This document shows positions 5,227-28,338 of a stretch of DNA of 64,000 bases, in pieces. The translations under genes were made by a program, and so were the position numbers. The notes under the pieces are model-generated. The model did no database searches, was not told where the DNA came from, and was given only the letters and a program-made list of their open reading frames with translations. Source of the DNA: an uncultured Christensenellaceae bacterium. GTDB taxonomy: Bacteria > Bacillota > Clostridia > Christensenellales > Pumilibacteraceae. The first letter of the stretch is position 1. Each line of letters begins with the position of its first letter. The stretch covers positions 99,748 through 163,747 of the forward strand of contig CAJULE010000001.1 of assembly GCA_910587445.1 (NCBI GenBank), in the 5' to 3' direction.

Positions 5227-6699
5227 ATGAAAAAGAAATTCCGAAATGCGTTTGCGGTGTGCCTTGTCGCGCTTACGGTTGCGCTTGTCGCCGTTTTGGG
5301 CGTCGGTTGCGGCGGAACGCAAAAGTATATCGTCTCGATAGAGGCGGGGCAGGAGTCGGGCACATACATAGTCACATATTCCGACGGAGAAACGCAGACT
5401 ATGGTTCTGCCGGGTAAGGACGGCAGGGACGGGAAGGACGGAAAAGACGTCACGATAACCGATATATACGAAACCTACGTCAAGGAGACGGGCGAGGATA
5501 TTTCATATTCGGAATTTATCGACAAGTATCTGTCGCTCAGTGTCCAAAGCGACAATTCCGCGACAATCGCGCAGTGTCTGCGTTCGGTAGGCAAGGTATA
5601 CGCCGAGTTTGTCGAACAGGTGTCCGGATCGTTTTTCGGCCGTCCCGTATATGACATAGCGATTTATACGGGCGCGGCGGTCGTGTGGTCTATGGACGAA
5701 GCTCAAGACGGATATACATACTTCGTGACAAACGCTCACGTAATATACGATTCCAAAGCCGTTTCGAGCGAGAACGACGGAAAAATAGCGCGCAAAGTCG
5801 TACTTTATATGTACGGCAGCGAAAGCTCACCCTACACGGTGGACGGAGACGGCGACGGCAGAGCGGACGCTGACGAGAACGGATACACCCTCTACGATTA
5901 CGGCGATTACGGTATCGAATGTGAAATAGTCGGCTATACTTTCGAAAAGGATCTTGCCGTAATAAAAGCAAAGACTGACGACGTGAAAAAGGTCAACCCG
6001 AACGTCTGCGCCGTGGAGCTTGCCGACGAATATCATGTGGGTGAGACGGCGATCGCCATAGGCAATCCCGACGACGGCGGCATAAGCGTAACCGAAGGAA
6101 TAGTCAGCGTCGACAACGACGACATAGAGCTCACGATAGACGCAAAGCGCACCTATCGTTCCATTCGTATGGATACCGCGCTTTACGGCGGAAATTCGGG
6201 CGGCGGTCTGTTCAATTCGTCGGGCAAGCTTATCGGCATAGCGAACGCGGGCAGCACTCAGGAAGAGAACATAAATTACGCGATACCTCTCGAGATAGTG
6301 CGCGGTACGGTGGAAAACATTCTCTATTGGGACGCGGACGGCAGTTCGGCGACGAGCGGAGCTTATAAGGTTACTCTCGGCGTGACGGTGCTTTCGAGCG
6401 GCTCGAAATATATCTATGATTCTTCGCTCGGCTACGGCAAGATAGTCGAAGACGTAGTCGTCCGCTCCGTCGTCGAAAACTCCATTGCTTCCCGCTTGGG
6501 CTTATCGAACGACGACGTGATAACCGCCGTAGTCGTCAACGAAAAGAAAACGGAAGTAAAGCGCAGTTTCGATATATCGGACATAATTCTCACCATGCGC
6601 CCCGGCGACGAAATAGCCGTCGGGTACACGCGCGGCGGCGAGACTTATACGAGCGAAAGCTATACGCTTGCTTCTTCCGACTTCGAAAAGCTTGCCTGA
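5227..6699 (+). CDS. secreted lipoprotein, trypsin-like (S1C / HtrA-DegP-like) serine peptidase with C-terminal PDZ-like region
   Basis: Signal peptide + lipobox (LAVLGVGC). Catalytic triad His (TNAHVIYD), Asp (DLAVIKA) and Ser (GNSGGGLFNSSGKLIGIANAG). Short collagen-like GKDGRDGKDGKD repeat. Start taken at ATG 5227 (AAGGAG 7 nt upstream) rather than the ORF-track start at 5197. Confidence 0.75.
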   Translation: MKKKFRNAFAVCLVALTVALVAVLGVGCGGTQKYIVSIEAGQESGTYIVTYSDGETQTMVLPGKDGRDGKDGKDVTITDIYETYVKETGEDISYSEFIDKYLSLSVQSDNSATIAQCLRSVGKVYAEFVEQVSGSFFGRPVYDIAIYTGAAVVWSMDEAQDGYTYFVTNAHVIYDSKAVSSENDGKIARKVVLYMYGSESSPYTVDGDGDGRADADENGYTLYDYGDYGIECEIVGYTFEKDLAVIKAKTDDVKKVNPNVCAVELADEYHVGETAIAIGNPDDGGISVTEGIVSVDNDDIELTIDAKRTYRSIRMDTALYGGNSGGGLFNSSGKLIGIANAGSTQEENINYAIPLEIVRGTVENILYWDADGSSATSGAYKVTLGVTVLSSGSKYIYDSSLGYGKIVEDVVVRSVVENSIASRLGLSNDDVITAVVVNEKKTEVKRSFDISDIILTMRPGDEIAVGYTRGGETYTSESYTLASSDFEKLA

Positions 6700-6726
6700 A
6701 ACCTGCCGATAAAATATAGGATAAAT

Positions 6727-6758
6727 CTCCCTCCTCGTCGAACGCGGAGGGTTTTTTA
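6727..6758 (+). terminator. rho-independent terminator after protease gene
   Basis: ccctcc...ggaggg stem followed by TTTTTT. Confidence 0.5.
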
Positions 6759-6892
6759 TTGTAATTTATATCCTCGGAACCGACAATGCGGGCAAAAAAA
6801 ATCACAAAGCGGGGCATATCCGTTTGCAAAAAAGCAAGTTTATGTTAAAATAGAATAAAGTGCTTCGGCTGTGTCGGGGAGGAAGAAACATC

Positions 6893-7603
6893 ATGCTGAA
6901 AATAGCGATGGTAGAAGATGAGAAGGAAGCTCGCGAGTCGCTCGGAAAGCTCATAAGGAGCTATTTCGACACACGCGGCGCGGGCGATTATACTGTAAAC
7001 GAATTTCAGAATGCCGTACTTTTTCTGTCGAAGCAAAAAGCCGATCACGATATTGTATTCATGGATATAGAAATGCCGGATTTCGACGGACTTACCGCGG
7101 CAAAGAAACTGCGCGAGACCGATCCGCTTGTGCTTCTTGTCTTTGTCACGAATATGCGCAGATATGCGACAAAAGGCTACAGCGTGGACGCGCTCGATTT
7201 CATAGTCAAACCGCCGACCGAGAACGCGCTGTTTTCGGTGCTCGACAAAGCCCGCAGAGTGCTTGCTTCCCGCACTGGGCGCGACATAATAATAAAGACG
7301 GCTCACGGCATGAGAAGAGTGCCCGTGTCCGAAATACGCTATATAGAGGTCAACCGCCATCGCCTTACGATACATCTCGAAACCGACGCCTTCGAGGCGT
7401 GGGGAAGTCTGAAGGAGTTGGAAGCGCAGCTGCCCGCCGATAAATTTTCGCGGTGCAACATAGGGTATTTGATCAGTCTCGAACACCTTTCGGGGATAGA
7501 CGGAGACGAAGTGGTCATGGGCGAAGATCGGCTCAAAATAAGTCGGCCGAAAAGAAAAGAATTTCTTGCCGACGTTGCCGCATATTTCGGGAGCGTGAGA
7601 TAA
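6893..7603 (+). CDS. LytTR-family response regulator (REC + LytTR DNA-binding domain)
   Basis: N-terminal receiver domain (acidic pocket DEKEA, FMDIEMPDFDG phosphoacceptor region). C-terminal LytTR domain (IRYIEVNRHRLTIHLETD). Start at ATG 6893 preceded by GGGGAGGAAG. ORF-track start 6860 is an upstream GTG. Confidence 0.85.
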   Translation: MLKIAMVEDEKEARESLGKLIRSYFDTRGAGDYTVNEFQNAVLFLSKQKADHDIVFMDIEMPDFDGLTAAKKLRETDPLVLLVFVTNMRRYATKGYSVDALDFIVKPPTENALFSVLDKARRVLASRTGRDIIIKTAHGMRRVPVSEIRYIEVNRHRLTIHLETDAFEAWGSLKELEAQLPADKFSRCNIGYLISLEHLSGIDGDEVVMGEDRLKISRPKRKEFLADVAAYFGSVR

Positions 7604-8955
7604 TGTTCGATTTTTCCGCACCGCTTTTTTGGTATAAGCTCATATTCATGGCAGAACTCCTAATAAGCGAAGCGCTTGCGACCTATACGCTCAAAAAGAA
7701 ATCTCGCTTTGCTTTGCGCGCGCCGCTAAGCGTGCTCGGCTGTCTTGCGACGGCTTTTTTATATCCGCTGCTTTCTTTTTCCTACAACGCCGCCTATACG
7801 TCGGTGATGTTTTTCGTGCTTTTCGGAGTCACTCTCGTCGGAATGAAGATGTGTTACGATGAAACGTGGGTCAACCTGATTTTTTGCGGAATCATCGCGT
7901 ATACCACACAGCATATAGCCTATGAAATAAACTCGCTTGTAACGACGGTGTTCGACCTCGGAGATATAGGCTCGTACTATGGCGGCGCACCCACCGGCGA
8001 GAGTAACCCGCTTATGTATATTACTTATTTCTGCGCATACTTTTTCACCTATTGGTTCGTGTGGGCTTTCATAGAATACAGAATAAGAAGGCGGCAGAGC
8101 TTGAAGATAGAAAACCTGTCTTTGTTCTTTTTCTGCGCGGTCATAGTGGTGATAGACATAGTTCTGTCTACGGTGGTGACCTATCTTCCGTATTCGCCCG
8201 AAGTCAAGTCTTACACGGCGGTGATAGGAATATACAATATACTTTCGTGCGGTCTTGCCGTGGGAATGCTGTTTTCCATGCTCGGCAAGCACCTTGTCGA
8301 GCAAGAACTCGAGACGGTCGAAGAGCTTTGGAAGCGCGACAAAAAGCAGTACGAGATGAGCAGTAAGAACGTCGAACTCATAAACATAAAGTGCCATGAC
8401 CTCAAAAAACAGATACGCGCTCTTTCCGAGGGCAACAGGGTGATTGACGGCGCGGCGCTCAGGGAGATAGAAGAGGCGGTCAACATCTACGACGGGGCGG
8501 TCAAGACGGGCAACGACGTAATAGACGTAGCGCTCGCGGAAAAGAGCCTTATTTGCGAGAGGGAAGGCATAGACTTCACCGTCATTGCCGAGGGCGAAGC
8601 GCTGTTTTTTGTAAGCTCGAACGATTTGTATTCGCTTGTCGAAAACGCTTTGTCGAATGCGGTGGAGAGCTGTCTTAAAACGGACGACAAAAAGGAACGG
8701 TTTATAAAACTGTATATACGTTCGGTGCGCGGCATGGCGAGTATTCACGTCGAAAATTTTTGCGGAAAAGAGCCGAAATTCGTAAACGGCTTGCCCGAGA
8801 CGAGTAAGGACGATAAAGACAGCCACGGCTACGGAATGAGGAGTATGCAGCTTATATCCGAGAAGTACGGCGGCGGACTCAAGGCGTCGTACTCGGACGG
8901 AGTTTTTACGCTCGACGTCATACTTCCCATGCAAACGGGGCAAAAATCGAACTAA
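7603..8955 (+). CDS. membrane sensor histidine kinase, GHKL ATPase of the AgrC/ComD-like (HATPase_c_5) type
   Basis: Start ATG overlaps RR stop (TAATG). Six to seven N-terminal TM helices. C-terminal ATP-binding region (ENFCGKE...SHGYGMRSMQLISEKYGG) typical of LytTR-partner kinases. ORF-track start 7453 runs through the RR gene and is rejected. Confidence 0.75.
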   Translation: MFDFSAPLFWYKLIFMAELLISEALATYTLKKKSRFALRAPLSVLGCLATAFLYPLLSFSYNAAYTSVMFFVLFGVTLVGMKMCYDETWVNLIFCGIIAYTTQHIAYEINSLVTTVFDLGDIGSYYGGAPTGESNPLMYITYFCAYFFTYWFVWAFIEYRIRRRQSLKIENLSLFFFCAVIVVIDIVLSTVVTYLPYSPEVKSYTAVIGIYNILSCGLAVGMLFSMLGKHLVEQELETVEELWKRDKKQYEMSSKNVELINIKCHDLKKQIRALSEGNRVIDGAALREIEEAVNIYDGAVKTGNDVIDVALAEKSLICEREGIDFTVIAEGEALFFVSSNDLYSLVENALSNAVESCLKTDDKKERFIKLYIRSVRGMASIHVENFCGKEPKFVNGLPETSKDDKDSHGYGMRSMQLISEKYGGGLKASYSDGVFTLDVILPMQTGQKSN

Positions 8956-9059: not shown

Positions 9060-12000
9060 ATGGCAAAGGATAAGCTCAGGATGAGCAACAAAAGGTTCAT
9101 GGCGATCATGATACCCGTAGGAGTATTCTTGCTTGCGCTCATAATCGTTGCGGTGTGCGTAATGAATTCTTTTGCGCCGGTCATGGACGCATTCTTCGGA
9201 AGAGGAAAGCGCCACATAGCCAACGTGGAAGGAACGGAAAATTGGGACACGAATTACTATGACGTAAAATACAAGAGTTATGACGAGTCCATAAAGGCGG
9301 CTACGCAAAACGCCAAGAAAGTTACCGACGAAGGATTTGTTCTTATGAAGAACGACGCGCCCGCAGGCAAAGAAAAGTCGCTTCTTCCGCTCGAACCCAA
9401 GGCAACGGTTACGCCGCTGGGAATGCGTTATGACGAAGCTGTCTACGGTATATACGGCTCGGGCTCGCCGCACGACGGCATGGGCATGAAAATGTATTTC
9501 GGCAGTGTCGTTTACGACGATAACTATAAAGTTACGAATCCGTGTTCGGTGGACATTCCCGAGGCGCTCGACGCGGAGTTTACGGTAAACAAAGCGCCGT
9601 TCGAGAAAATGAAGGCTTCCGAATGGGAAGTGATCGGGGAAGCTGACGGAACAATACCGTGCAAAGAAATCGATTCTATAAACGGTTGCGCGGGCAGTAA
9701 TACTTTCCTGTACGAATATAACCCGTCGATTTACGCAGGTACCGAGACAAGCTGCGCAAACAGCGTCGGTCTCGTGTTTATCGGCAGAGACGCGAGCGAG
9801 GGCGGAGATCTCAAGCTCGACGGTTACACGGACGGAACGCCTCACGAGCTTGCGCTCTCGAAGAACGAGCGCGATACGGTGAAGTTCGCAAAGCAGAACT
9901 GCACAGGCGGCGTAGTGGCGATCATAAACTCCTGCAACCCCATGGAACTCGGCGTACTCATGTCGGGCGAGCTCGAGGTGGACGCAATCGTTTGGATAGG
10001 CTTCCCGGGCAGCAACGGCGCGGAGTCGCTTGCCGACATTCTCTGCGGTAAGGTCAATCCTTCGGGCAGAACCGCCGACATCTGGGTAAGCAACCTTATG
10101 AACGACCCTACGTATAAGAACTACGGTTCGTACATCTATTCGTCTGCCGAAGTCGCAAACAGCAAGGCAATCGGCACTTCGTTTGTAGAGTACGAAGAGG
10201 GCGTATATGTGGGCTATCGCTACTATGAGACGGCGGCTGTCATGGACGGCTCGTTCGATTACGACAAAGCCGTAGTATTCCCGTTCGGCTACGGACTTTC
10301 CTACACCGAGTTCGAGCAGAAAATAACTTCGTTCGATACGTTCGGCGACGATATAACCGTCAAAGTTACGGTGACGAACAAAGGGGCAGTGGACGGCAAG
10401 GACGTCGTACAGCTCTATTACACAGCACCCTATACGCAGTGGGACATTGACAAAAAGATCGAAAAGCCGGTCAAAAACCTCGTTGCGTTTGCAAAGACGG
10501 ACATCATAAAGGGCGGACAAAGCGAAGAAGTGACGCTCACGTTCTCGAAAGAGGACATGGCTTCATACTGCTATACCCGCGAAAACAAGAACGGAACTAA
10601 GGGTGCATACGTGCTCGAGAGCGGCGATTATACGGTTACGCTCGGTAAAAACAGCCATGAAGAATGGGATAAAAAAACCGTACATATAAATGAAGAATGG
10701 TTCGACGAGTCCAATCCCCGTCGGAGCGAAAAGAACGGACAGTCAAAGCTCGACGACGAGGGCAACCCCATGGGAGTGACTGCTGTCGGAGGCGATCTCG
10801 ATTTCATAGCCGCAAGCAATCTTTTCGAGGACAGCAACACGTATATGAACTCTTCCACGGTAACGCTTCTTTCCCGTGCGGATTGGAAGAATACCCAACC
10901 TACGACTCCGACGGGCGAATCGTTTAAAGCCCCGAAAGCCGTTTGCGACACGATAGACGCATACAGCAGAGATACGTTCGACTATAAAGCAGATAAGCTT
11001 CTCGGAAACGTCGAAGGCAGTGCAATCTACAAAGCAACCGCACCGACGTCGAAGGCGCAGAACGGTCTGACCGTTGCGGATATGCGCGGACTCGACTACT
11101 ACGACGAGAGTTGGGAACTTCTTCTCGATCAGATTGATTACTCTAAGACCGAAGAGATAAACAAATTGCTTTACGGCGGCGCATACGGTCTCGGTGCACT
11201 CGATTCGATAGGATTGCCTGCTACGAGCAGTGCGGAAGGACCTGCGGGCATAGGATTGTTTGCTCATCTGTTTTACGGAGATACCCGACTTACGAAGATA
11301 CCGAAGATGTGCGGCTATGCGGCTAACACCGTGCTTGCGAGCACGTTTAACGAAGAGCTTGCCTATCTTACGGGCGCGTCGGTAGGGCAGGAAGCATATT
11401 GGTTCAGAAAGGAAGGCGAGACCACTTATCTCAACGGTTGGACAGGGCCGGCGATGAACCTTCACCGCAACGCGTTCTGCGGACGTAACGCCGAGTACTA
11501 CAGCGAAGATCCGGTGCTTGCCGGCGCAATGGGCAGAAACGAAATTTCGGGTGCGGGCGACAACGGACTCTATACGATATTCAAGCACTTTGCCATCAAC
11601 AACATAGAGACGGCTAAGACGGCGGGCGACGGCATATGTACTTGGGCAACCGAACAGACCATGAGAGAAATATATTTCAAGGTATTCGAGGACGTGTTCA
11701 AGAACTCCCGCCGCGAGGTCAAGTACATCGCTGACGATAACGGCACGGTTAAGACGAGAGTGGTTCGCGGCGCAACGGCGGTCATGACGTCGTTCAACCG
11801 TGTGGGTGCGATTCCCGCAGGTTCGAACTATGCGCTCATAACCGAACTTTTGAAAAACGAATGGGGCTTCCAGGGCTTCGTACAGTCCGATATGCCGAGT
11901 CAATCCAATAAGGATCAAATGCTCAGAGCGGGCGGCGCGGTGGAAATGAACTCTTCGGTTTCCGTAGCGGAGGATCTTTCCAGCCCGACCGCTCAGTGGC

Positions 12001-12254: not shown

Positions 12255-12287
12255 AAAAACAGGACGCGTCTTGCGTCCTGTTTTTAT
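12255..12287 (+). terminator. rho-independent terminator after GH3 gene
   Basis: aaaaacaggacgc gtct tgcgtcctgttttt: 12-bp stem followed by a T-run. Confidence 0.7.
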
Positions 12288-12320
12288 ATGGTAATTAGAA
12301 AAAAAAATTTGCAAAAGCGG

Positions 12321-12350
12321 TTGACAAATCGAGCAATGTTCAGGTATATA
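12321..12350 (+). promoter_or_regulatory. sigma-A-like promoter for S8 protease gene (TTGACA-N18-TATATA)
   Basis: TTGACA at 12321-12326, TATATA at 12345-12350. Confidence 0.4.
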
Positions 12351-12382
12351 TTACGGAACATATTTAAAAAGGGGCAAAGATA

Positions 12383-14370
12383 ATGAAAAAGGCAATTTAC
12401 TCATTATGTGCGCTATGTATGGCGCTTGCAATCGTACTTATTCCCGTGAGTACTCTTGACGCTTTCGCTCTTAACGCGGACGCGGAGCCTATGGAAAAAA
12501 AGTGTTCTGCAGCGTGACTCTCGAGGACGACTTTGCGGAAGACGAAGTGGTAGTTACGATAAAAAATAAGGAAAGTTTAAAGTTCAAAAAATATGTAGCA
12601 AGTGATTTCGTCGATATCGGTTGTGAGTCGGTTGATGATTTGTCGATCGCATATGCCGATGATGTGCGAATACATAAGGATCATGCTTGTAAAAAGTCGG
12701 CTTTTGCAAAAGATTATAATCAGCTTCTTAGTCTTAAATTGAAAGAAAAGAGCAAAGAGAATGTTCTCGCGGCAATTAAGGTGCTTGAAAAGCGTGATGA
12801 TGTGCTTTCTGCTGAGCCGAGTTATATTTTGGATTCATTCGATAGTAATGTTGAGGAAAATAACGGGCATGGAATCGAACCAAATAAGGCAATAGGTGGT
12901 GGATTGCCTATAAATCCCGTGTTACCTGTAGTAAAGCCCACAAAGCTTCCTAACGACCCCGGGCGATCTCGGCAGTGGGCAATTGCAAGAATAAAGCTGC
13001 CCGAGGCATGGAACTATACCACGGGTTCGAGTGATGTTGTTGTTGGGGTTATAGACAGCGGTGTTGATTCTACGCATCCCGATTTACAAGGCAAAATCGA
13101 TACGTCGCTTAGCTATGATTTCGTAAATAATACATCTGCTATGCCTGCTACGTCAAGTCTTTTTTATCATGGGACAATGGTTGCGGGAATTATAGCTGCT
13201 CAGACCGACAATGGAGAATGAATTGCAGGCGCAGGGTGGAACGTAAGAATAGCTTCGCTAAGAGTTGGTGACAGCTTGGGTGGAATTAAAACCCCTTATG
13301 TCGTGTCGGCGATAGAATATGCTAGAATAAAAGGGATTCCTATTATCAATCTTAGTCTCGGGGGTAAACAAGACGACAGTAGGCTTCGCAGTGCAATAGA
13401 AAAATATACAGGGGTAATAGTGTGTGCAGCCGGAAATGCCGAAGCGGATAATGATGACAGCAAAAATGCAGTTTATCCGGCGAGTTATAGCTATAGAGAA
13501 AACTTAATATCCGTAGGAGCAAGTGATACAGAGGATAAAAGATTTATAAATGGCGGCACAGGTTCCAATTATGGGAAAACGACAGTAGATTTATTTGCTC
13601 CGGGAGCCAACATATATTCTACGATGATACAAGGGCGTTATCAAGGGTCATGCTCCGGTACGAGTTATTATGAGTCGGACTCCGGGACGTCGTATGCCGC
13701 ACCATATGTTTCGGGTGTTGCCGCATTGTTGCTTTCAAGATTTCCGGAACTTACTGCTGCGGAAATTAAAGACGCTATAAAGAACAATGTCAGTAAAGTG
13801 AGCGCACTCAGTGACCTGTGTGTTTCGGGTGGTAGACTTAATGCCTTAAATGCGCTTATTGGTTTACATTCGGGTCATAGATACGGGCAATCCTATTCAT
13901 TTGTATCGCAAACACAACATGCATCATTCTGCGAATGTGGGGATCATAAACTTGAGCCACATTGGGCATATTCTTCTTCCTTACGTATGTACAACGGACA
14001 TCGATATGCTACTTGTGCGTGCTGTAAATATGAAATAAATATCGATAATAATCCCATAATTGTAATAAGCAATTCAGCTCCCGGAGAGCTTGAACTTATG
14101 GGGCTTAAAGTGGTAGAAAGTCCAAAGCAGCTTGTGCAGGCGCTTTCTCAAAATTTTCGGCAAACAAGTTCTTTGAAAATGGAAGCTGTCCTGTCATATT
14201 ATGATGAAGAGTTTTTTGAGACATATGCAATAGTCCTGTCCGATGATTTTGATATGGAACGTGTCGTAGAGTCTCTGTATTCGAATATAATAGAGTGTAG
14301 AAAATACATTGACAAAGAAGGAAATTTTTGGTATGATACAGACAATAACTATGAGGAGATATATGCATGA
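12383..14370 (+). pseudogene. secreted subtilisin-like (peptidase S8) serine protease, disrupted by a frameshift in an A7 run and an in-frame TGA; C-terminal about 120 aa is a novel tail domain
   Basis: Signal peptide ORF (12383-12510) ends after an A7 run. Adding one A fuses it in frame to the I9 propeptide-like region of the 12502 ORF. The Asp box VVGVIDSGVD and the His box HGTMVAGIIAA are followed directly by TGA (13219-13221) at the position of the conserved Gly of the subtilisin NxxGxG(V/I)AG motif. The same frame continues into ORF 13276-14370 with the Asn (LSLGG) and Ser (GTSYAAPYVSG) boxes. AT-rich relative to its flanks. Confidence 0.7.
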
Positions 14371-14825
14371 AAAAGAGACTGATTCCTATATTGATTGCGC
14401 TTGCATTGTGTATGAGCATAGTTTTTTGTGCTTGCGGTTCGACAAGTGAAACTCCTATATGCGACTATGAAGAGCTGTCTGCGGAAACAAGAACAAAAAT
14501 TGCTCAGGCATATTGCGACTTATATGAGTTAGATGAAAATGAAGAAAAGAACTTTGAGGTCGAGGAGTTTTATACCTCAAGGGAAGGCGTCTATGTATTC
14601 TATACGCATTATGCGGTATTTGCTTTTCTGGCATTACGAAGTGAGAAAATCGGCGGTGTCCGAATCGAGTATCCCGATAGTATAGGATTTAATGTTTATA
14701 TAGAGCAGACCGACGAAATAATCGGACTTGCTAATGCTTATGAACAGGGTTTGGTTACAAAGAAAGATATAAAGCTCATAAACGAAAAGCACAAAAAAGC
14801 GCGTTCGTATCTTTACAAAGATTGA
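14367..14825 (+). CDS. repeat lipoprotein, copy 1 of a duplicated cassette (paralog of 27181-28338)
   Basis: Start inside the stop of the protease ORF (ATGA). Signal + lipobox SIVFCACG. Shares the IxxAYCD(L/I)xY block and one xAYExGxLxxxDI repeat with the 385-aa paralog. Confidence 0.6.
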   Translation: MKKRLIPILIALALCMSIVFCACGSTSETPICDYEELSAETRTKIAQAYCDLYELDENEEKNFEVEEFYTSREGVYVFYTHYAVFAFLALRSEKIGGVRIEYPDSIGFNVYIEQTDEIIGLANAYEQGLVTKKDIKLINEKHKKARSYLYKD

Positions 14826-14850
14826 ATCATACCTAAAATCTAACTTCCGA

Positions 14851-26685: not shown

Positions 26686-26819
26686 AAGACGCAAAAGTAA
26701 TAACAAAAATTTAAACGTCGGTTGGCTTCGGGCTCTTAAGGGCTAGAGTTCTGACGTTTTTTTTGACGTTTTCCGTGGCTCTCCCCATGAATTTATCCTT
26801 ATTTTTTCCAAAAGTCCCC

Positions 26820-26848
26820 TTGACGAGCTCACGAAAGCATGATATAAT
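26820..26848 (+). promoter_or_regulatory. strong sigma-A-like promoter (TTGACG-N17-TGATATAAT, extended -10)
   Basis: TTGACG at 26820-26825, TATAAT at 26843-26848 preceded by TGa. Confidence 0.5.
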
Positions 26849-26902
26849 TTAAGTACGATATTACTTATAATTACTCTTCCCGGGTCTTTTTCGGTCGGAG
26901 AG

Positions 26903-27184
26903 TTGGAGACTATGGGACTGAGAGTAATAGAAAGTCCTACCGAGCTTGCAAATGAAATATGTACTTTGGAAAATGTTTCGGAATACTATCGAATAAATGA
27001 GATATTATCGCATTATGATGAACTGTTTTTTGAAAAGTATAATATTGTAATAGCCGATAATACGGATAAGAGCAATATCATAGATAATTTGCATATGAAT
27101 ACAGTAGAGAATAGTAAAAATATCGGACAAAAAGAAAGTATATTATTCGGCAAAGATTGTGAGTTCGAGGAGGTATATGTATGA
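26903..27184 (+). CDS. small cytoplasmic protein (93 aa) homologous to the C-terminal tail of the S8 protease at 13990-14370; first gene of cassette copy 2
   Basis: MGLRVIESPTELANE...LSHYDELFFEKYNIVIADN... aligns with LMGLKVVESPKQLVQ...LSYYDEEFFETYAIVLSDDF... of the protease tail. RBS GGAGAGTTGGAG. Confidence 0.55.
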   Translation: METMGLRVIESPTELANEICTLENVSEYYRINEILSHYDELFFEKYNIVIADNTDKSNIIDNLHMNTVENSKNIGQKESILFGKDCEFEEVYV

Positions 27185-28338
27185 AAAAGAAAATAATTTC
27201 GTTATTTGTCGTATTGACGTTTTGCATAAGCGTTGTTTTTTGTGCGTGCGGCGGCGCGGGCAATAAGTCGGGTAAAGACGATATACCTTTAACTTCGGAA
27301 GAGATACTAGAGATAAAAAAGGCATATTGCGATATAATGTATAACGGCAGGAAAACAGCCGTAGCGGACGAAATTATCGAGATATTTTCTTATTACGGAA
27401 ATTACGACGGGGCAATCGTAGTCACTGTCGACGGCAAGACGGGGATAAGTTCTTATCGGTCCAACCGTTTCACGGCGATGGGATATGAGTTTGTCGGGAC
27501 GCCGAAATCACTTTTTAAAGTGTATAAAGACGGCGAGATGAAGAGTTTGGATGAGGCGTGCGAAAACGGGTGGCTTAAGGAAGAAGACATAAAAGCCGTT
27601 CATGAAATATATGCCGAGGAATATGCAGTATATTACAAAGACGCTTCGGCAACCGAAGATTACGAAAAGATAAGAGTACAGTTCAACGAACAAATCGGTG
27701 CGGCTTCAAGCGATTGCGATGTTTTTTATACGAGCTTGGGCAGCTACGCTTCTACCGAAGTGCTTTCTCTCGAATCGGAGGATTTTTGGAGAAATTCTCA
27801 TTCCGCGACTTGTAAGGCGGGAGAAGCGACGTTTAATCTTTCGGGAATGACTGAACTTCGGGCGTACAGAGACGGCGTATTGCATACGGTGGAATCCGCT
27901 TATGAAAACGGGTGGCTTACGGCGCAGGATATCGAAAAAGCGCTTGCATTGCATAAAGCCATGTACCCGTATGTGTATATAAGCCGAGAAGAAGCGCCGA
28001 GCGCAGACGAAAAGACCAAAGAGAAAATGGCGCGGGAATACTATGAGAAAAGTTTAAAACTCAATTACGAGAACGTAAAAGCAAGCCAAGTGCAAGCAGA
28101 CGCTTTTTACGGGGAATATTCGGGCGCAAGCGTTTATCATTTTACTACTCCGCTTGCGAGCGTTACTGCGTGCGTAACTTGCATTTTGGGCGGAGTGGTG
28201 TTCGGATTCGGATCGCCCATGCAAGTTCTCGAAGTATATAAAGACGGAAGCTTTTTGAGCTTAGAAGCGGCATACAGAACGGGGTGGCTTTCGGTAAGCG
28301 ATTTGAGAGCGTTGCAGTCTTTGTATTACTTGCGCTGA
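27181..28338 (+). CDS. repeat lipoprotein, copy 2 (385 aa) with three about 35-aa Y[KR]DG...A[YC]ENGWL..DI repeats
   Basis: Start overlaps the previous stop (ATGA). Signal + lipobox SVVFCACG nearly identical to 14367-14825. Repeats at about residues 113-150, 228-265 and 352-385. Confidence 0.65.
   Translation: MKKKIISLFVVLTFCISVVFCACGGAGNKSGKDDIPLTSEEILEIKKAYCDIMYNGRKTAVADEIIEIFSYYGNYDGAIVVTVDGKTGISSYRSNRFTAMGYEFVGTPKSLFKVYKDGEMKSLDEACENGWLKEEDIKAVHEIYAEEYAVYYKDASATEDYEKIRVQFNEQIGAASSDCDVFYTSLGSYASTEVLSLESEDFWRNSHSATCKAGEATFNLSGMTELRAYRDGVLHTVESAYENGWLTAQDIEKALALHKAMYPYVYISREEAPSADEKTKEKMAREYYEKSLKLNYENVKASQVQADAFYGEYSGASVYHFTTPLASVTACVTCILGGVVFGFGSPMQVLEVYKDGSFLSLEAAYRTGWLSVSDLRALQSLYYLR

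What the first reader, a model, noticed from the sequence alone, without database searches (positions are those of the whole stretch)
12383..14370. Subtilisin gene carrying two lesions: -1 frameshift in an A7 run and an in-frame TGA at a conserved Gly codon
1. The signal-peptide ORF (from 12383) and the propeptide/catalytic ORF (12502-13221) are in different frames. They are joined perfectly if the run of seven A at 12495-12501 were eight: ...EPMEKKVFCSVTLEDDF....
2. The catalytic-domain frame is interrupted by a single TGA (13219-13221), exactly where subtilisins have the invariant Gly of the motif after the catalytic His (HGTMVAGIIAAQTDNGE*IAGAGWN, compare subtilisin [23 protein letters not shown]). 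A one-base change from GGA explains it.

Everything else is intact: Asp, His, Asn and Ser boxes, and the signal peptide. Possible explanations are a recent pseudogene, homopolymer or base-call errors, or slipped-strand phase variation at the A-run. TGA-as-Gly recoding is unlikely, because TGA clearly terminates many intact genes here, for example rubredoxin and the HtrA-like protease.
Basis: seen in the sequence. Interest (0 to 1): 0.6.

Follow-up and report, generated by a model that had tools for sequence, protein, structure and literature searches.

The report
Decaying subtilisin pseudogene in gut bacterium
This is a real, recently broken gene for a secreted subtilisin-type protease in an uncultured mouse-gut bacterium; the same two lesions recur in many independent samples as steps in a mutation series, so it is an ordinary pseudogene, not an error or a recoding signal.

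Summary
Neither is an assembly error. Across about 45 copies of the locus from independent metagenomes and MAGs, the alleles form a nested series: intact 662-aa gene, then loss of one G, then G>T making the TGA, then further hits in some strains (delAT 13612-13613, or a second TGA at 13505). One detail is wrong. The ancestral sequence is GAA-GAA-AAA-G, not A8, so a G was deleted; no A6 or A8 allele was seen. The TGA replaces GGA for Gly280, conserved in at least 90% of homologues. A second lineage, labelled uncultured Christensenella sp., keeps both sites intact but carries its own 4-bp and 1-bp deletions, and one otherwise intact allele has a private 2-bp deletion, so there were at least three independent inactivations. 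About 16 kb of flanking genes show no frame-breaking change. Programmed frameshifting, TGA recoding, selenocysteine and phase variation are rejected. Extras: a paralogous protease is largely deleted in the window (remnant 26867-27184), the partner lipoprotein genes stay intact, and the protease-lipoprotein cassette is near-identical between lineages whose flanks are 74-87% identical.

The parts
12260..12285 (+). Terminator-like hairpin plus T-run ending the upstream GH3 gene, so the protease gene has its own transcription unit
   Evidence: Read directly (CAGGACGC-GTCTT-GCGTCCTG-TTTTT); coordinates. The consensus scan did not list it.
12299..12307 (+). Intergenic A9 run upstream of the promoter. 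It is A8 in all intact alleles and some broken ones, and the polymorphism does not track the lesion series.
12321..12350 (+). Promoter-like TTGACA-18 nt-TATATA upstream of the protease gene
   Evidence: Read; coordinates. It does not pass the scanner's rule, so this is an inference only.
12383..12517 (+). Fragment 1: start codon, Sec-type signal peptide (MKKAIYSLCALCMALAIVLIPVSTLDAFA) and 15 more codons, ending at an out-of-frame TGA
   Evidence: Identical to residues 1-38 of the intact allele P0123.
12495..12501 (+). Lesion 1: A7 run created by loss of one G (intact alleles read GAAGAAAAAG). In the upstream frame it reads A_AAA_AAG (12496-12502), by accident a -1 slippery heptamer.
12502..13221 (+). 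Fragment 2: propeptide and first part of the catalytic domain (Asp225, His263), ending at lesion 2
13219..13221 (+). Lesion 2: TGA nonsense codon, from a G>T change in GGA (Gly280)
   Evidence: G in all intact, delta-G-only and lineage-2 alleles; conserved Gly
13222..14370 (+). Fragment 3: rest of the catalytic domain (Asn352, Ser437) and the roughly 170-aa C-terminal extension with an invariant His/Cys cluster (13918-14025), in the same frame as fragment 2
14309..14337 (+). Promoter-like site (TTGACA-17-TATGAT with TG) inside the 3' end of the protease gene. It could drive the lipoprotein gene independently.
   Evidence: 11 of 12 matches. Consensus match only.
14367..14825 (+). Partner lipoprotein gene (152 aa), overlapping the protease stop by 4 nt. 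It was called full-length in every lineage-1, lineage-2 and L011 locus that covers it, and the exact protein is listed in 133 blocks of the index.
26867..27184 (+). Remnant (last 318 nt) of a second subtilisin paralogue (P0004-type, 656 aa when intact). The 5' 1653 nt of its coding sequence are missing.
27181..28338 (+). Partner lipoprotein of paralogue B (385 aa, three repeats of the orf152 domain); intact

Best explanation
Window 12383-14370 is a genuine, evolutionarily recent pseudogene of a secreted subtilase. When intact, the gene encodes 662 aa: signal peptide, pro-subtilisin-type propeptide, thermitase-like catalytic domain, and a Cys/His-rich C-terminal extension. It belongs to an uncultured mouse-gut bacterium whose GTDB species representative is labelled 'uncultured Christensenella sp.'.

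The gene was inactivated stepwise. First, a single G was lost from GAA-GAA-AAA-G at codon 39, separating the signal peptide from the rest of the protein. Later, on that background, a G>T transversion turned Gly280 GGA into TGA. Some descendants carry third hits. The window holds the two-hit allele.

The first lesion happens to create an in-frame A_AAA_AAG heptamer, so a trace of -1 slippage (inferred to be well under 1%) could occur. It is not a programmed or conserved signal, and the downstream TGA makes it irrelevant in this allele.

Shown: the lesions, their order, their reproducibility, independent inactivations in other lineages, and past purifying selection. Inferred: that the gene product is absent, and why the gene is being lost. 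The likely reason is relaxed or reversed selection on a secreted protease in this habitat, and the loss of the paralogue fits that.
For: 1. The lesions were verified in the sequence, and the repaired protein is a Peptidase_S8.
2. An intact 662-aa allele, differing from the window only at the two lesions and one synonymous SNP, occurs on 17 contigs.
3. The allele series is nested across independent assemblies:
- delta-G only: L002, L005, L009, L059-L063; 9 contigs read.
- delta-G + TGA: window, L003, L004, L010, L049-L058; 22 contigs read. L006 also has the TGA but has Ns at the delta-G site.
- delta-G + TGA + delAT 13612-13613: L007, L008, L052, L053.
- delta-G + TGA + a second TGA at 13505: L054.
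TGA was never seen with the G retained at the A-run site.
4. There are independent first hits: delTT 13709-13710 on an otherwise intact allele (L001), and del4 12902-12905 plus delA 13012 in lineage 2, the commonest form, listed in 70 blocks of the index.
5. dN/dS between the intact lineage-1 allele and lineage 2 is 0.25 (41 synonymous, 38 nonsynonymous differences). More distant homologues are full length. The gene was therefore functional until recently.
6. Substitutions seen on broken alleles are 3 nonsynonymous to 1 synonymous, as expected without constraint.
7. In 18 lineage-1 loci, about 16 kb of flanking coding sequence contains hundreds of SNPs but no uncompensated indel or stop, while this gene has four frame-breaking changes.
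8. The intact protein models confidently (pLDDT mostly above 90 over the catalytic domain). It superposes on thermitase with TM-score 0.93 normalised to thermitase.
Against: There are no expression or protein data, so residual function of the fragments or low-level read-through cannot be excluded. For example, a signal-less 618-aa product could start at GTG 12514 in delta-G-only alleles. The window's own reads were not available. Many contigs come from a few large mouse-gut studies, so contig counts overstate the number of independent populations. The retrieval tool collapses places that have the same neighbouring proteins, which over-displays alleles with altered gene calls. The frequencies are therefore rough, and a ratio test of loss-of-function changes to SNPs would be biased.
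Confidence: 0.9

Rival explanations
1. Sequencing or assembly error: the gene is really intact, and the missing base and the T are artefacts.
For: Frameshifts at A-runs are a classic error signature, and the intact allele differs by only these two sites plus one synonymous SNP.
Against: Identical lesions recur in at least 12 samples from different projects and assemblers: ENA metaSPAdes contigs, Logan contigs and NCBI MAGs. The missing base is a G, not an A of a homopolymer. Flanking genes in the same contigs carry no indels.
Confidence: 0.02
2. Programmed -1 ribosomal frameshifting (dnaX/IS911-type) or transcriptional slippage at A_AAA_AAG joins the signal peptide to the protease, so lesion 1 is a regulatory recoding site.
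For: The upstream frame reads GA-A_AAA_AAG. A -1 slip gives exactly ...EPMEKK-VFCSV.... A_AA.A_AA.G is among the most efficient E. coli heptamers (PMC4066793). A GGAG lies 8 nt upstream.
Against: The heptamer is derived. All intact alleles, lineage 2 and all homologues at 43-65% identity read in frame with E-E/D/Q-K. There is no downstream structure beyond shuffled controls (z = -0.15) and no Rfam element. Without stimulators, heptamers give only 2-10 times a ~0.055% background. Alleles with the heptamer went on to acquire nonsense and frameshift mutations downstream, so no selection maintains the product.
Confidence: 0.03
3. The in-frame TGA is decoded, through reassignment to Gly or Trp, selenocysteine insertion, or efficient read-through.
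For: The TGA sits exactly at a conserved Gly codon, and TGA is the leakiest stop codon (general knowledge).
Against: TGA ends 13 of 38 long ORFs in the window. Intact alleles have GGA at this position. There is no tRNA gene in the window. There is no SECIS-like structure (z = -0.40) and no Rfam hit. A second TGA at a Leu codon arose in L054.
Confidence: 0.01
4. Slipped-strand phase variation: the A-run length toggles the protease on and off reversibly.
For: An A7 run lies at the 5' end of a secreted-protein gene. A separate intergenic A9/A8 run at 12299-12307 is length-polymorphic and does not track the lesion series.
Against: Among about 45 copies of the locus only two states exist at the coding site, A2-G-A5 and A7. 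No A6 or A8 was seen. The ON state is not a homopolymer, so slippage cannot restore it exactly. Delta-G tracks linked flanking SNPs (11903, 11906, 14381), which indicates a single origin.
Confidence: 0.03
5. The loss is adaptive, not neutral. Null alleles of a secreted protease are favoured and rise repeatedly, either as public-good cheats or through escape from host or competitor recognition, while the partner lipoprotein is retained.
For: There are at least three independent first hits in this gene plus deletion of the paralogue. Broken alleles outnumber intact ones in the contigs read. The lipoprotein partners are intact in every lineage-1, lineage-2 and L011 locus held that covers them. 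The delta-G+TGA allele sits on several different flanking haplotypes.
Against: The same pattern is expected from simple relaxation of selection, for example in laboratory-mouse diets. Second and third hits on a dead gene carry no information about selection. Sampling is biased (see above). In L036 the protease is intact while the lipoprotein gene is split, which argues against a strict toxin-immunity logic.
Confidence: 0.3

Closest known systems
Thermitase and AK.1 protease (subtilase family S8A, thermitase group; PDB 1thm, 1dbi)
   Same: The catalytic domain of the intact allele is 37-38% identical and superposes with TM 0.91-0.93. It has the same Asp-His-Asn-Ser arrangement and the same conserved Gly at the position hit by the TGA. 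The N-terminal propeptide resembles pro-subtilisin E (3whi).
   Different: This protein has a roughly 170-aa C-terminal extension with an invariant H-x3-C-x-C-x7-H...C-x2-C cluster that matches no Pfam family. Its gene overlaps a partner lipoprotein gene. In this window the gene is broken.
dnaX / IS911-type A_AAA_AAG programmed -1 frameshift sites
   Same: The identical heptamer, in the correct frame, with the downstream ORF in the -1 frame (PMC4066793).
   Different: The heptamer is not conserved. It arose by a deletion in one lineage, has no stimulatory structure, and is followed by further inactivating mutations. The resemblance is accidental.
Stepwise pseudogene decay and recurrent loss of secreted-protease production in bacterial populations (for example gelatinase-negative Enterococcus faecalis, lasR or agr mutants; recalled from general knowledge, not tested here)
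   Same: Several independent loss-of-function alleles of an exoprotease function segregate within one species alongside intact alleles.
   Different: Here the structural protease genes themselves are hit, not a regulator. The organism is uncultured, and no phenotype or fitness data exist.

Membership tests
Peptidase S8 (subtilase), thermitase-like | Significant match to the family profile | tested here: met
   PF00082, E 2.2e-48, 165.5 bits against a cut-off of 21.8
Peptidase S8 (subtilase), thermitase-like | Catalytic Asp-His-Ser in that order, plus the oxyanion Asn | tested here: met
   D225, H263, N352 and S437 are invariant or nearly invariant in the alignment. All four codons are intact in the window.
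Peptidase S8 (subtilase), thermitase-like | Subtilisin alpha/beta fold | tested here: met
   AlphaFold model of the intact allele, pLDDT mostly above 90 over residues 190-495. TM-score 0.93 normalised to thermitase 1thm.
Peptidase S8 (subtilase), thermitase-like | Membership of a named NCBIfam equivalog (mycosin, PrtP and others) | tested here: not met
   Best hit is mycosin at 165 bits, below the cut-off of 278.75. This is a generic S8 protein, not any named subfamily.
Pseudogene | Reading frame disrupted relative to intact orthologues or alleles | tested here: met
   Delta-G and GGA>TGA relative to the 662-aa allele P0123 and to homologues P0002-P0007
Pseudogene | Lesions reproducible in independent data, not an artefact | tested here: met
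   Delta-G+TGA on 22 contigs and delta-G only on 9 contigs, from several projects
Pseudogene | Signs of lost constraint after the first lesion | tested here: met
   Nested additional frameshift and nonsense mutations, and 3 nonsynonymous to 1 synonymous substitutions on broken alleles. The numbers are small.
Pseudogene | No functional product made | not testable with these tools
   Needs a transcriptome or proteome, or an activity assay
Programmed -1 ribosomal frameshift site | X_XXY_YYZ heptamer in the zero frame, with the continuing ORF in the -1 frame | tested here: met
   A_AAA_AAG at 12496-12502
Programmed -1 ribosomal frameshift site | Heptamer and two-frame layout conserved among homologues | tested here: not met
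   Intact alleles, lineage 2 and all homologues are in frame with no heptamer
Programmed -1 ribosomal frameshift site | Stimulatory downstream structure | tested here: not met
   Folding z-score -0.15 against shuffles; no Rfam match
Phase-variable contingency locus | Repeat-length polymorphism among strains that toggles the frame | tested here: not met
   Only A2-G-A5 or A7 among about 45 copies of the locus; no A6 or A8
TGA reassignment or selenoprotein | TGA not used as a terminator, or a SECIS element present after the TGA | tested here: not met
   TGA ends 13 of 38 long ORFs. No structure (z = -0.40). No Rfam hit. The ancestral codon is GGA.

The most novel reading that the evidence does not exclude
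The protease-lipoprotein pair may be a small exchangeable cassette. It has moved recently, and more than once, between two species-level-divergent gut lineages. It is 93-99% identical where the flanks are 74-87% identical. Its protease half is then repeatedly and adaptively discarded while the lipoprotein half is kept. That is a producer-to-non-producer dynamic like that of secreted public goods or toxin-immunity modules, here involving a subtilase with a previously undescribed Cys/His-rich C-terminal domain and an uncharacterised lipoprotein family.
Probability: 0.2. Interest if true: 0.55.

Novelty: new member of a known kind. Interest (0 to 1): 0.3.

Why it matters
For annotation, these ORF fragments should be marked as one pseudogene, not as two or three 'S8 family peptidase' genes or as a recoding candidate. 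The accidental A_AAA_AAG heptamer shows how a plain deletion can mimic a programmed frameshift site.

Biologically, the locus is a clean natural series in an uncultured mouse-gut commensal: intact, then one, two and three hits, plus independent hits in a sister lineage and a deleted paralogue. It could be used to ask whether secreted proteases are being selected against in laboratory-mouse microbiota, and what the conserved partner lipoprotein does. None of this is unexpected in kind.

Tried and rejected
- **Programmed -1 frameshifting.** The heptamer is in the right frame, but it is derived, not conserved and unstimulated.
- **TGA recoding or selenocysteine.** Rejected on stop-codon usage, the ancestral GGA, and the absence of structure, Rfam hit or tRNA.
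- **Phase variation at the A-run.** No length variants were found.
- **Assembly error.** Rejected because the lesions replicate across projects.
- **Assignment to a named S8 subfamily with NCBIfam.** Only sub-threshold hits.
- **Pfam scan of the lipoproteins, the 724-aa neighbour and the C-terminal extension.** Nothing above threshold.
- **Ratio test of loss-of-function changes to SNPs, for positive selection.** Abandoned because the retrieval tool preferentially displays alleles with altered gene calls, which biases the counts.
- **Lipoprotein as obligatory immunity partner.** Weakened by L036, where the protease is intact and the lipoprotein gene is split. This is a single contig.
- **Literature search for this organism or locus.** Nothing relevant was found.
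- **Consensus scanner.** It did not list the terminator or the promoter I read by eye upstream of the gene, so those two parts rest on inspection only.

Full report
**1. Observation**

The sequence shows a run of seven A at 12495-12501 and a TGA at 13219-13221. The ORF list gives three fragments:
- a 44-codon ORF from ATG 12383 that encodes a typical signal peptide;
- a 239-codon ORF at 12502-13221, in the -1 frame relative to the first;
- a 364-codon ORF at 13276-14370, in the same frame as the second.

Joined and repaired, they give a 662-aa protein with a strong Peptidase_S8 match (PF00082, E 2.2e-48). The codons for Asp225, His263, Asn352 and Ser437 are all intact in the window.

**2. Is TGA a stop here?**

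Among 38 long, non-overlapping ORFs in the window, 13 end in TGA, 20 in TAA and 5 in TAG. The window contains no tRNA gene. Nothing suggests a reassigned code.

**3. What related sequences show**

A protein search found a 100%-identical partial protein from another assembly. It reads EPME-E-KVFC and DNGE-G-IAG, so it is intact at both sites. Full-length homologues at 43-65% identity all read E-E/D/Q-K at the first site.

Looking up the neighbouring 152-aa protein, the cluster members and the window's own fragments brought in about 45 copies of this locus from ENA, Logan and NCBI assemblies. DNA alignment gives the following lesion catalogue in window coordinates:

| Lesion | Change | Where seen |
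|---|---|---|
| (a) | Loss of one G; intact alleles read ATGGAAGAAAAAGTG, the window reads ATGGAAAAAAAGTG | All broken lineage-1 alleles that are readable at this site, except L001 |
| (b) | 13219 G>T, GGA>TGA | Never seen with the G of (a) retained; L006 has Ns at site (a) |
| (c) | delAT 13612-13613 | On the (a)+(b) background: L007, L008, L052, L053 |
| (d) | 13505 T>G, TTA>TGA | On the (a)+(b) background: L054 |
| (e) | delTT 13709-13710 | Private to L001, on an otherwise intact allele |
| (f) | del GATT 12902-12905 and delA 13012 | All lineage-2 loci (L012-L019, L028), which keep the G and GGA |

The translation of lineage 2 needs three frames.

Contigs read per allele:

| Allele | Contigs |
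|---|---|
| Intact | 17 |
| (a) only | 9 |
| (a)+(b) | 22 |
| Lineage 2 | listed in 70 blocks of the index |

L055 (GCA_948986445.1) is identical to the window across the gene.

The GGA>TGA idea is right.

**4. Real lesions, not errors**

The same lesions occur in assemblies from different projects and assemblers. In 18 lineage-1 loci, the 4.4-24.5 kb region around the gene carries hundreds of SNPs, many in recombination-like clusters. There is no uncompensated indel or stop in any other coding sequence, against four frame-breaking changes in this 2-kb gene.

Delta-G is linked to flanking SNPs at 11903, 11906 and 14381, which indicates a single origin.

**5. Recent loss of a previously constrained gene**

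dN/dS between the intact lineage-1 allele and lineage 2 is 0.25 (41 synonymous, 38 nonsynonymous differences). The window differs from the intact allele by one synonymous change besides the lesions. Substitutions seen only on broken alleles are nonsynonymous (13357, 13559, 13975). The numbers are small but fit loss of constraint after the first hit.

**6. Recoding rivals**

In the upstream frame, lesion (a) creates GA-A_AAA_AAG, the dnaX/IS911-type heptamer. A -1 slip would give exactly the repaired protein. Several results argue against a programmed site:
- The heptamer is derived and not conserved.
- The downstream RNA folds no better than shuffled sequence (z = -0.15).
- Rfam finds nothing.
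- In E. coli, heptamers without stimulators give only 2-10 times a ~0.055% background (Sharma et al. 2014, PMC4066793).
- Alleles with the heptamer went on to collect further lesions.

I conclude that it is an accidental look-alike and leaks well under 1% at most (an inference). There is no SECIS-like structure after the TGA (z = -0.40).

**7. What the intact gene is**

The closest solved relatives by sequence are AK.1 protease and thermitase (E about 1e-36). The TGA position aligns to a Gly in AK.1 protease and is at least 90% conserved in 34 homologues (Gly280).

The AlphaFold model (mean pLDDT 79.9; catalytic domain mostly above 90) superposes on thermitase with TM-score 0.93 normalised to thermitase. 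It matches pro-subtilisin E over the propeptide plus catalytic domain. No NCBIfam subfamily is reached.

A roughly 170-aa C-terminal extension carries an invariant H513/C517/C519/H527/C545/C548 cluster and matches no Pfam family.

**8. Organism**

The only close hit among GTDB species representatives is a MAG titled 'uncultured Christensenella sp. isolate MGBC137892'. It carries the lineage-2 allele. Sample and MAG names point to mouse-gut catalogues. That is an inference from the names.

**9. Surroundings**

*Partner lipoprotein.* The protease stop overlaps by 4 nt the start of a 152-aa lipoprotein gene (14367-14825). It was called full-length in every lineage-1, lineage-2 and L011 locus that covers it.

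*Second paralogue.* A paralogous protease, P0004 (656 aa, 53% identical), lies in some strains between the 724-aa and 385-aa genes. In the window only its last 318 nt remain (26867-27184, 99.6% identical). The 5' 1653 nt of its coding sequence are gone. A TTGACG-17-TATAAT promoter (26820-26848) now sits directly upstream of the remnant and of the 385-aa gene. This deletion allele is the common one.

*A conserved pair.* The 385-aa product is a three-repeat paralogue of the 152-aa lipoprotein (E 2e-15). The same family follows another homologue in L064. Protease followed by lipoprotein is therefore a conserved two-gene unit, and in this genome both protease members are dead while both lipoprotein members are intact.

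**10. An unexplained population pattern**

Between the window and lineage 2, the flanking genes are 74-87% identical, but the cassette is far more similar:

| Part of the cassette | Identity |
|---|---|
| Protease 5' part | 93% |
| Catalytic and C-terminal parts | 97.4% |
| Lipoprotein gene | 98.5% |

L011 has a lineage-2 backbone (99.7% identical to L014). It differs from L014 at 25 sites, 24 of them inside the cassette, and its lipoprotein gene is 100% identical to the window's.

In a more distant relative (L036) the protease is more diverged than its flanks. The cassette has evidently been exchanged between the two lineages recently and more than once, and the protease was then broken independently on each side.

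Whether the losses are neutral or selected cannot be decided here. The display bias of the retrieval tool rules out a fair ratio test. L036, with an intact protease and a split lipoprotein gene, argues weakly against a strict toxin-immunity logic.

**11. Verdict**

This is a real, recent, stepwise-decaying subtilase pseudogene. It is ordinary in kind, and its population context is moderately interesting.

Noticed in passing
window 26686-27184: A second subtilisin paralogue (P0004-type, 656 aa when intact in L037, L038 and L043) is reduced to its last 318 nt (26867-27184). The junction lies at a short ATAAT(T)ACT microhomology, and a strong promoter-like site (26820-26848) now feeds the downstream 385-aa lipoprotein gene. 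The deletion allele is the common one.
   Followed up: yes
window about 12300-14830, compared with L014 and L011: The protease+lipoprotein cassette is a 2.5-kb island of 93-99% identity between lineages whose flanking genes are 74-87% identical. L011 differs from its own lineage almost only inside the cassette (24 of 25 sites). This indicates recent, repeated inter-lineage exchange of the cassette.
   Followed up: partly
window 12299-12307: An intergenic A9 run just upstream of the protease promoter is A8 in all intact alleles and in some broken ones (L004, L007, L008). The polymorphism does not track the lesion series, so it reflects recurrent slippage or recombination.
   Followed up: partly
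window 13918-14025 (residues 513-548 of the intact protein): An invariant His/Cys cluster (H-x3-C-x-C-x7-H ... C-x2-C) lies in a C-terminal extension shared by all close homologues. It matches no Pfam family and looks zinc-binding, which is unusual in a secreted protease.
   Followed up: partly
window 14367-14825 and 27181-28338; L064 3828-4355: An uncharacterised lipoprotein family (one repeat in orf152, three in orf385) always follows these subtilase genes with a 4-nt overlap. It has no Pfam or NCBIfam match.
   Followed up: partly
L065 3581-3985 and 5835-6239: In a more distant relative (P0014), two 100%-identical 134-aa lipoprotein genes flank the subtilase gene as direct repeats. This arrangement could delete the protease by recombination.
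   Followed up: no
L036 7063-7560: In a related species with an intact 643-aa orthologue, the downstream lipoprotein gene reads in two frames, followed by a stray C-terminal fragment 86% identical to the end of orf152. This rests on a single contig.
   Followed up: partly
P0008: A 633-aa homologue with the same signal peptide has RGT in place of the catalytic HGT, and an altered Asp box. It may be a catalytically dead paralogue.
   Followed up: no
L013/L016 (LRR_5 gene), L018 (histidine kinase), L042 (724-aa gene): Other genes of the neighbourhood are split in individual strains: 206+170 aa, 278+158 aa and 420+308 aa. These are sporadic strain-specific pseudogenes or assembly errors.
   Followed up: no
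window 6480-7725, compared with L022: L022 carries a highly divergent tract across the 3' end of the HtrA-like gene, the LytTR response regulator and the 5' end of the kinase. It looks like an imported recombination tract in an Agr-like two-component system next to the GH3 and protease genes.
   Followed up: no
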